64,000 nt of DNA from Octopus vulgaris (lineage: Eukaryota). The translations under genes were made by a program, and so were the position numbers. Positions 58,056 to 58,645 of the stretch are shown here, one piece after another; within the stretch, counting starts at the first letter, position 1; each line of letters opens with the position of its first letter. The stretch is taken from the NCBI GenBank assembly GCA_951406725.2, contig OX597822.1, positions 68,634,001 to 68,698,000 of the forward strand. The letters run 5' to 3'. Below the pieces are notes generated by a model. The model made no database searches and was not told the origin of the DNA. It saw only the letters and a program-made list of their open reading frames with translations.

Positions 58056-58645
58056 ATATATATATATATATATTATATAAAAGGGCTTAGTAAAATAAAT
58101 TACTTCGCCGCATACTGAACTCATAAATGTTGTTTTGACTAATCTTGAAACGTACGTACTCAAATAACCTTAGCATTTGATTTTTAATGTCCTTACCCCC
58201 AAACTTTTGTGAGTTAAATTAAGCAAACGCTATATATGAGAGAGATTTTCTTTAAGTATTAGAAATAGCTTTAAAAAAAGTTTTTTAGCTGCTATTTCTA
58301 ATGAGTTCAGTATGCGGCGAAGTAATTTATTTTACTAAGCCCTTTTATATAATGTAATAATTTGAATTCGCCTTAAATGGTCCCTTTGCATACTGAACAC
58401 TTGGTGAAATTGATTAATAATTAATTAATTTTACCCTCAATTGTTGAAATTATAATTAATCTCCCTCTAATTATTGCTTCGGATTTTACCGAAATAAGCA
58501 TAGCGTTTGATGATTTTAACCCACGCTGGTGGAAAGGGGAGAACAGAAATGATTCACTTGCTTATTTGGGTTTGCTGGCACTGTTAGTTAAGAGCGGATC
58601 TTCGAAAGGGTATGTTCTTACTTTCAGTGTTTCCAAATCCAAACC

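What the first reader, a model, noticed from the sequence alone, without database searches (positions are those of the whole stretch)
58072..58353. Inverted 5' cap on the array records the integration mechanism
Seen: the first 53 bp are an exact reverse complement of an internal unit segment (58301-58353). They join the array in the middle of hammerhead stem II, so the first ribozyme lacks its CUGAAGA. Known: Penelope-like insertions often have a short inverted partial pLTR at one end. Inference: the array was inserted by a Penelope-type RT with a template switch or fold-back, not generated only by unequal crossover.
Basis: partly seen in the sequence, partly recalled or inferred. Interest (0 to 1): 0.7.

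Follow-up and report, generated by a model that had tools for sequence, protein, structure and literature searches.

The report
Two-armed Penelope-type retrozyme insertion
The small inverted piece is the short arm of a back-to-back, two-armed insertion of a ribozyme-motif repeat into a TA stretch, and across the genome one arm almost always ends at one fixed point of the repeat and the other arm at a second point about 100 bases further on, which likely records a Penelope-type enzyme copying the RNA onto both cut DNA strands at once.

Summary
Confirmed: 58072-58124 is the exact reverse complement of unit positions u177-229 and joins the 545-bp array inside hammerhead stem II. It is not a special 5' cap. 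It is the short arm of a head-to-head insertion whose two outer ends are both sense 3' ends in (TA)n. In 98 end-anchored insertions, 79 are two-armed, and 76 of these pair site A (about u229) with site B (u326/330); one is B/B, none A/A. Arms run from tens of bases to 6.8 kb and the inner junction wanders, so the stem II position is incidental. Pure fold-back is geometrically impossible in 18 of 74 well-resolved insertions. Arms share variants, junctions carry microhomology, and 14 of 74 stop at the same RNA coordinate (2.5 expected). A sister retrozyme (5 of 5) and an intact 1312-aa Penelope-like element (11 of 11) obey the same rule. Best reading: twin priming at two fixed RNA sites by a Penelope-type enzyme. 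Retrozymes, inverted pLTRs, one-sided tails and two start sites are published; the strict pairing was not found in my searches. Earlier scan notes report it for other families in this genome. Reads were uninformative; the partner enzyme is unidentified.

The parts
58054..58071 (.). left (AT)n target run
   Evidence: sequence
58072..58124 (-). short arm (site-A arm), unit u177-u229 read on the minus strand; its sense 3' end (u229, ...UAUAUAAU) faces the left TA run with 2 nt shared
   Evidence: u229 is the commonest site-A end, 47 of 74 (which prints it as 230 through a 1-nt offset in my script)
58124..58125 (.). inner head-to-head junction, u177 joined to u1, no simple microhomology; the 9-mer at 58120-58128 is also the reverse complement of u527-535
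58125..60088 (+). long arm (site-B arm): 3.6 units of 545/545/544 bp, one substitution and one 1-nt indel among them; sense 3' end at u330 (...GAAAUUAUA) with 4 nt shared with the TA run
   Evidence: u330 and u326 are the commonest site-B ends, 33 and 29 of 74 (1-nt offset)
58125..58165 (+). truncated first hammerhead (rest of stem II, GAAA, stem III, predicted cut after 58158), no CUGAAGA
58650..58710 (+). complete type I hammerhead motif (CUGAAGA 58660, stem II, GAAA-C-GUAC-G-UA, predicted cut after 58703); further copies at 59195-59255 and 59739-59799
   Evidence: no Rfam hit; activity untested
58354..58454 (+). 'tail': the 101 nt between site A (u229) and site B (u330), first copy
58305..58398 (+). 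predicted stem u181-191 : u264-274 that encloses site A; C-G in 207 and U-A in 57 of 274 pattern matches (copies, not independent events)
60089..60100 (.). right (TA)n target run
   Evidence: sequence

Best explanation
The 53-bp inverted piece is the short arm of a two-armed, head-to-head insertion of a 545-bp non-coding hammerhead-motif repeat (a retrozyme) into a (TA)n run, likely made by a Penelope-type RT-endonuclease that primes reverse transcription from both cut target strands at two fixed RNA sites about 100 nt apart. Shown: the anatomy, the two fixed outer ends, their near-strict one-of-each pairing, the free inner junction, the shared variants of the two arms, and the junction microhomology. 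Inferred steps: (1) a multi-unit or circular RNA is bound at the structured region around sites A and B by a Penelope-type protein supplied in trans, probably as a dimer; (2) both strands of the TA target are nicked; (3) one 3' end starts copying at site A and the other at site B, so both new strands are antisense and grow away from their own flank; (4) each stops after tens to thousands of bases, running through hammerheads without stopping; (5) the two cDNA 3' ends anneal through 1-4 nt, sometimes with short locally templated inserts, and each is extended on the other, giving the head-to-head junction. One RNA molecule for both arms is favoured over two molecules of one source, but is not proven. 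Here the site-A strand stopped after 53 nt and the site-B strand after 1964 nt.
For: Pairing: of 59 insertions anchored on a site-B end the other end is site A in 40, site B in 1, elsewhere in 2, absent in 16; of 39 anchored on a site-A end the other end is site B in 36, site A in 0, absent in 3 (four loci corrected by hand; Fisher p 3e-21). Top-hit sample: 27 of 30 head-to-head pairs are A/B. At least 1121 site-B and 527 site-A ends in TA genome-wide, control patterns 0. Containment: 18 of 74 violate fold-back, as many as for shuffled arm lengths (20.6). Same source: 1.1 differences per 130 nt between partner arms against 7.2 between insertions (44 of 74 scorable). Same stop point: 14 of 74 against 2.5 expected. 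Microhomology of 1 nt or more in 49 of 56 ungapped junctions (null 48%), 2 nt or more in 31 of 56 (null 19%). No arm starts at the predicted cut u35 (0 of 148) and 48 of 74 insertions have an arm longer than one unit. A 559-bp sister family, 64% identical, ends at the homologous positions, A/B in 5 of 5 insertions with both ends in view, some without TA microhomology. An intact 1312-aa element with YVDD, CX4CxxC, C..C inside the GIY-YIG core and HxxxxH has one short and one long end in 11 of 11 scorable insertions of 16 fetched. Literature: PAc cuts and extends both strands, is predicted to be a dimer, and starts at two RNA sites that bound the tail (PMC11167929); the tail is often at one end only (PMC8557442).
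Against: No partner enzyme was tied to this family: the 1312-aa element shares no significant sequence with the unit, and its domains rest on motifs only (Pfam and PDB found nothing). 56 of 74 insertions, this one included, are also compatible with fold-back by containment, and this junction has no simple microhomology. 19 of 98 insertions show one arm only, and one is B/B (L073). On one RNA the site-B enzyme would have to displace the site-A cDNA. PAc showed no strand difference in start site in vitro and pairing of sites within one event was not reported in the text I read. Arm 5' ends are not significantly enriched at sites A or B, as a collision model might predict (p 0.32 and 0.17). Microhomology may be slightly inflated because the best of 99 reference units was used. 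Anchoring patterns select the commonest end variants. No reads, RNA or empty site were seen.
Confidence: 0.75

Rival explanations
1. Fold-back or self-priming (first reader; self-priming was proposed for Penelope inversions in PMC3846280): one cDNA is made from the target, its 3' end folds back or switches template and copies itself, and the copy is then joined to the other flank.
For: 56 of 74 insertions satisfy containment, including this one; partner arms share variants; the junction 9-mer here fits a hairpin at u527-u4; 6 of 10 inserts of 5 nt or more are full copies of sequence within 60 nt (two may be misplaced junction calls).
Against: 18 of 74 violate containment, the rate expected for independent arms; in L098 and L118 the arms do not overlap at all. 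Among 15 near-symmetric junctions 9 have the wrong sign for fold-back from the site-B arm. It does not explain why the second end stops at the other fixed site. Two of the 18 (L148, L155) are nearly alike and may not be independent.
Confidence: 0.12
2. The two fixed ends are endonuclease cut sites on a DNA intermediate (resolution of a copied or circular cDNA), not reverse-transcription start sites.
For: PMC8557442 attributes the tail to EN-mediated resolution; both sites are AT-rich (AUAAU, AAAUUAUA), like PAc's preferred ATT cut.
Against: Both ends are sense 3' ends on opposite strands with a free, microhomology-joined centre; a cut double-stranded intermediate would give one sense 5' and one sense 3' end. 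PAc tail ends map to RT start sites in vitro.
Confidence: 0.08
3. The inversion arose after insertion (DNA repair, recombination, unequal crossover) or is an assembly artefact.
For: Later duplications do occur at some loci (L036, L061/L062/L068, L080, L092/L093). This junction has no read support from my calls (34, 54).
Against: 79 of 98 anchored insertions are two-armed with fixed, paired ends in three unrelated or diverged families; neither crossover nor misassembly would produce that.
Confidence: 0.03

Closest known systems
Animal non-LTR retrozymes (Cervera and de la Pena 2020, PMC7229834, passages; Li, Clavereau and Pollet, bioRxiv 10.64898/2026.07.22.740005, part 1 of 5 and passages)
   Same: Non-coding, AT-rich tandem units, one type I hammerhead motif per unit, dispersed in many copies, proposed to ride on Penelope-like elements.
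   Different: Unit of 545-560 bp against about 170-400 nt; strict (TA)n targeting; head-to-head two-armed insertions with fixed ends. 'Inverted' does not occur in the first paper's text and only in a reference title of the second. Circular RNA and cleavage are untested here.
Insertion units of endonuclease-bearing Penelope-like elements (PMC8557442 and PMC3846280, passages)
   Same: Inverted 5'-truncated copy joined head-to-head, tail at one end only, (TA)n preference in clades with the CX2-5CxxC linker.
   Different: No ORF (longest stop-free stretch 77 aa); tail about 100 nt against 30-40; inversion is the majority outcome (79 of 98); those papers call the tail optional and explain it by EN resolution or self-priming.
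PAc (Poseidon of Anolis) in vitro mechanism (Frangieh et al. 2024, PMC11167929; abstract and main text read, supplements not seen)
   Same: Two internal RT start sites bounding the tail, AT-rich target, both strands cut and extended, hammerhead cleavage not needed.
   Different: The text I read does not link the two sites to the two ends of one insertion or to the inverted copy. Start sites here share 1-4 nt with the TA target, though some sister-family ends share none.
L1 twin priming and dual priming (PMC2837659, passages)
   Same: Both target strands prime, giving an inverted arm and an internal junction.
   Different: No poly(A); both sites are internal and fixed; arms overlap in sequence and may each exceed one unit; L1 arms are described as inverted fragments with an internal deletion.

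Membership tests
Animal non-LTR retrozyme | tandem non-coding units, no LTR/PBS/PPT, no ORF | tested here: met
   545-bp units; longest stop-free stretch 77 aa; PBS/PPT not searched for separately
Animal non-LTR retrozyme | type I hammerhead motif in each unit | tested here: met
   CUGANGA, stem II, GAAA, 1-bp stem III with palindromic GUAC loop, UH, stem I in 93 of 99 units; no Rfam hit
Animal non-LTR retrozyme | dispersed high copy number | tested here: met
   1120 candidate places; 1121 and 527 end junctions
Animal non-LTR retrozyme | self-cleavage of the RNA | not testable with these tools
   needs transcription in vitro
Animal non-LTR retrozyme | expression as linear and circular monomer RNA | not tested
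   no RNA run was laid; contigs could not show a circle
Penelope-type insertion | inverted 5'-truncated copy joined head-to-head | tested here: met
   79 of 98 anchored insertions (corrected by hand)
Penelope-type insertion | tail at one end only | tested here: met
   76 of 79 two-armed insertions are A/B; tail about 100 nt rather than 30-40
Penelope-type insertion | target-site duplication | tested here: inconclusive
   both flanks are TA runs, so a duplication cannot be read
Penelope-type insertion | sequence kinship of the unit to the pLTR of a coding element | tested here: inconclusive
   not found for the one family examined; two other leads were unrelated or non-coding; other Penelope families were not surveyed
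Autonomous Penelope-like element | own RT plus GIY-YIG ORF | tested here: not met
   no ORF in the unit
L1-type twin priming | poly(A)-primed first strand and variable internal second priming site | tested here: not met
   no poly(A); both sites internal and fixed

The most novel reading that the evidence does not exclude
Twin priming is the normal integration route of Penelope-like elements: a dimeric enzyme holds one RNA (for retrozymes, a circle) with one active site at each end of the tail, extends both target strands at once, and the host joins the two cDNA ends. This one rule would explain the inverted pLTR, the one-sided tail and ready-made retrozyme arrays.
Probability: 0.4. Interest if true: 0.75.

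Novelty: new member of a known kind. Interest (0 to 1): 0.5.

Why it matters
How Penelope-like elements make their tandem and inverted ends is described as unresolved (PMC8557442). This young, non-coding family gives a countable footprint: one end at each of two fixed RNA sites in 76 of 79 two-armed insertions, with arm geometry that rules out fold-back as the general cause. It turns the question into a direct test in the existing in vitro system and defines a roughly 170-nt cis-element (u160-u330), conserved in a sister family, as the likely enzyme-binding site. It also gives junction-level support to the idea that animal retrozymes are mobilised by Penelope-type enzymes. The single locus is an ordinary example of the family.

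Tried and rejected
Rfam: no hammerhead match. Junction position in stem II as a signal: rejected (17 of 148 against 19 expected). Pile-up at the hammerhead cut: rejected (0 of 148 at u35, 4 in u33-46). Stops at sites A or B: not significant. Hidden snap-back as a general junction feature: 0 of 26 asymmetric low-microhomology junctions reached 9 nt, but the script also missed the window's own case through its choice of reference, so the test is weak. Partner search: 1312-aa element unrelated in sequence; an ORF remnant in L203 beside a unit-like stretch is a separate repeat; the diverged family in L181 is another non-coding tandem repeat. Pfam and PDB did not name the 1312-aa protein. Dropped before counts: L093, L154 and three repeat copies in L080 as duplicates; from the 97 A/B pairs, 23 with an arm under 93% identity, an unresolved junction or a gap over 25 nt were left out to give the set of 74. 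Scan notes searched by sequence gave nothing.

Full report
Observation. The window holds a 3.6-copy array of a 545-bp unit at 58125-60088 with one substitution and one 1-nt indel between units. I number the unit from 58670 (u1-u545). Bases 58072-58124 are the exact reverse complement of u177-u229, with no extension on either side. The forward array begins at u1, the fourth base of hammerhead stem II, so the first motif lacks CUGAAGA. Both ends of the whole structure lie in TA runs. The hammerhead is not recognised by Rfam, but a type I pattern (CUGANGA, stem II, GAAA, C-GUAC-G, UA or UU, stem I) is met in 93 of 99 distinct full units, which were chosen by the GAAAC..GU part.

The family. A search of the own genome gave 1120 candidate places, 40 scored. 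I fetched those 40. Most were two arms joined head-to-head, each ending in TA with its sense 3' end, one near u229 (site A) and the other near u326-330 (site B); 27 of 30 head-to-head pairs were A/B. To avoid selecting on structure I searched for each end alone: 1121 site-B and 527 site-A junctions, controls 0. I fetched 60 of the first listed site-B ends on C1 and the first 40 new site-A ends on C2 and C3. After dropping two duplicates: of 59 site-B-anchored insertions the far end is site A in 40, site B in 1, elsewhere in 2 and absent in 16; of 39 site-A-anchored insertions it is site B in 36, site A in 0 and absent in 3 (L073, L080, L129 and L166 corrected by hand; Fisher p 3e-21). Most one-armed copies also have TA at their 5' side, and a few show arms of 10-20 nt. 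The 'cap' is thus the short arm of a standard two-armed insertion.

Geometry of 74 young, well-resolved A/B insertions. Median arm lengths are 452 and 454 nt and are uncorrelated (rho 0.13, p 0.28); the site-A arm is the longer in 29. Arm 5' ends spread over the unit, with none at the predicted cut and no excess in the hammerhead. 48 have an arm longer than one unit, so the template was multi-unit or circular and was not stopped by ribozyme cleavage; PAc likewise does not need cleavage. Fold-back requires one arm to be contained in the other; 18 of 74 break this, close to the 20.6 expected for shuffled lengths. Yet 14 of 74 stop at the same RNA coordinate (2.5 expected), and of 15 such junctions 9 have the wrong sign for fold-back from the site-B arm; this suggests two enzymes reaching a common end on one RNA. 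Partner arms differ by 1.1 changes per 130 nt against 7.2 between insertions, and the partner is the nearest or tied-nearest arm in 35 of 44 scorable cases. Of 56 ungapped junctions 49 have at least 1 nt and 31 at least 2 nt of microhomology (null 48% and 19%); 18 have inserts, and 6 of the 10 inserts of 5 nt or more are local copies. The window's own junction is blunt, but its spanning 9-mer is also the reverse complement of u527-535, 10 nt upstream of the array start; chance is about 3-6%, so a local template switch is possible but unproven.

What fixes the two sites. Site A lies in the loop of a predicted stem (u181-191 with u264-274) with a compensatory C-G to U-A change between subfamilies; site B follows a second hairpin. 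Commonest ends are u229 (47 of 74), u330 (33) and u326 (29), sharing 1-4 nt with the TA target. A 559-bp sister family at 64% identity keeps this region best, ends at the homologous positions and is A/B in 5 of 5 insertions with both ends in view, of 23 loci examined; several of its ends share no bases with TA, so position rather than homology sets the site.

In-genome comparator. An RT fragment from L088 (weak RVT_1 match) found a young family with intact 1310-1312-aa frames. [quoted passage not shown] Of 16 insertions fetched, chosen for long frames or visible head-to-head pairs, 11 had both ends in view and all 11 had one end at ORF nt 25-26 and the other at nt 70-85, in TA or, once, at an N gap. 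It shares no significant sequence with the retrozyme, so it shows the rule belongs to Penelope-type integration but is not shown to be the partner.

Mechanism. Shown: anatomy, pairing, independence of arm lengths, shared variants, microhomology. Inferred: a Penelope-type enzyme in trans, probably dimeric, nicks both strands of a TA run, primes one strand at site A and the other at site B, and the two antisense cDNAs are joined at their 3' ends. One RNA against two RNAs of one source is not settled. Against: no partner, no RNA or read evidence, 19 one-armed and one B/B case, the need for strand displacement on one RNA, and no significant stops at the two sites.

What is known. Animal retrozymes and their proposed link to Penelope elements (PMC7229834, passages; bioRxiv 10.64898/2026.07.22.740005, part 1 of 5 and passages). 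Inverted truncated copy and one-sided tail (PMC8557442, passages; PMC3846280, passages, which favours self-priming on an antisense template). Two RT start sites, both strands extended, predicted dimer (PMC11167929, abstract and main text). Twin and dual priming for L1 (PMC2837659, passages). My searches listed no paper holding both 'pLTR' and 'twin priming' and none that states the one-site-per-end rule; subscription papers are missing from the library, and the supplements of the PAc paper (Figs S1B, S2), of PMC8557442 and of the preprint, which I did not see, may bear on this. Earlier scan notes, read after I had formed this reading, report the same rule for 360-, 363- and 490-nt families in this genome; they are unchecked AI notes and add no independent support. 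The label 'octopus-like' comes from those notes and from recall, not from a call of mine.

Verdict. Real, well supported, a new member of a known kind. The locus is ordinary for its family; the value lies in the family-wide pairing rule, which narrows an open mechanistic question and is directly testable. Interest 0.5.

Noticed in passing
L205:2763-6698 (G000:C17:6331762-6335697): Young Penelope-like family with intact 1310-1312-aa frames, a long Asn/Ser-rich insert before the RT, a hammerhead-like motif in its pLTR and many near-identical copies; candidate active enzyme for in vitro work.
   Followed up: partly
L233 (G000:C2:183801526-183804889) and L181:257-814: Sister retrozyme family, 559-bp unit, 64% identical, with a hammerhead motif with a longer stem III and a GUC cut triplet; 1264 candidate places.
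   Followed up: partly
L073:505-1508: The one B/B insertion, from an older subfamily; both arms end at u323 in TA.
   Followed up: yes
L080:505-1134 and 5935-6563: A small A/B insertion present as a mirror pair, twice within 6 kb; probably copied afterwards with its surroundings.
   Followed up: no
window 61043-61421 and 62982-63345: Long inverted repeats (84-94% complementary) about 1.6 kb apart with other repeats between them; looks like a non-autonomous DNA transposon.
   Followed up: no
window 14750-14840: Decayed stretch resembling the unit's u261-305 region (48 nt, 81%), ending near a TA run; probably a remnant of a related family.
   Followed up: partly
window 57500-58050: The left flank is itself a very high-copy repeat whose end runs into the TA target.
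   Followed up: no
L042, L045, L082, L164, L106: Several arms are almost exactly one, two or three units long, as if copying a circle stopped on returning to its start; not significant in my test.
   Followed up: partly
L061, L062, L068 (C24): Three copies of one one-armed insertion with the same non-TA 5' flank beside a LINE-like remnant: a segmental duplication.
   Followed up: partly
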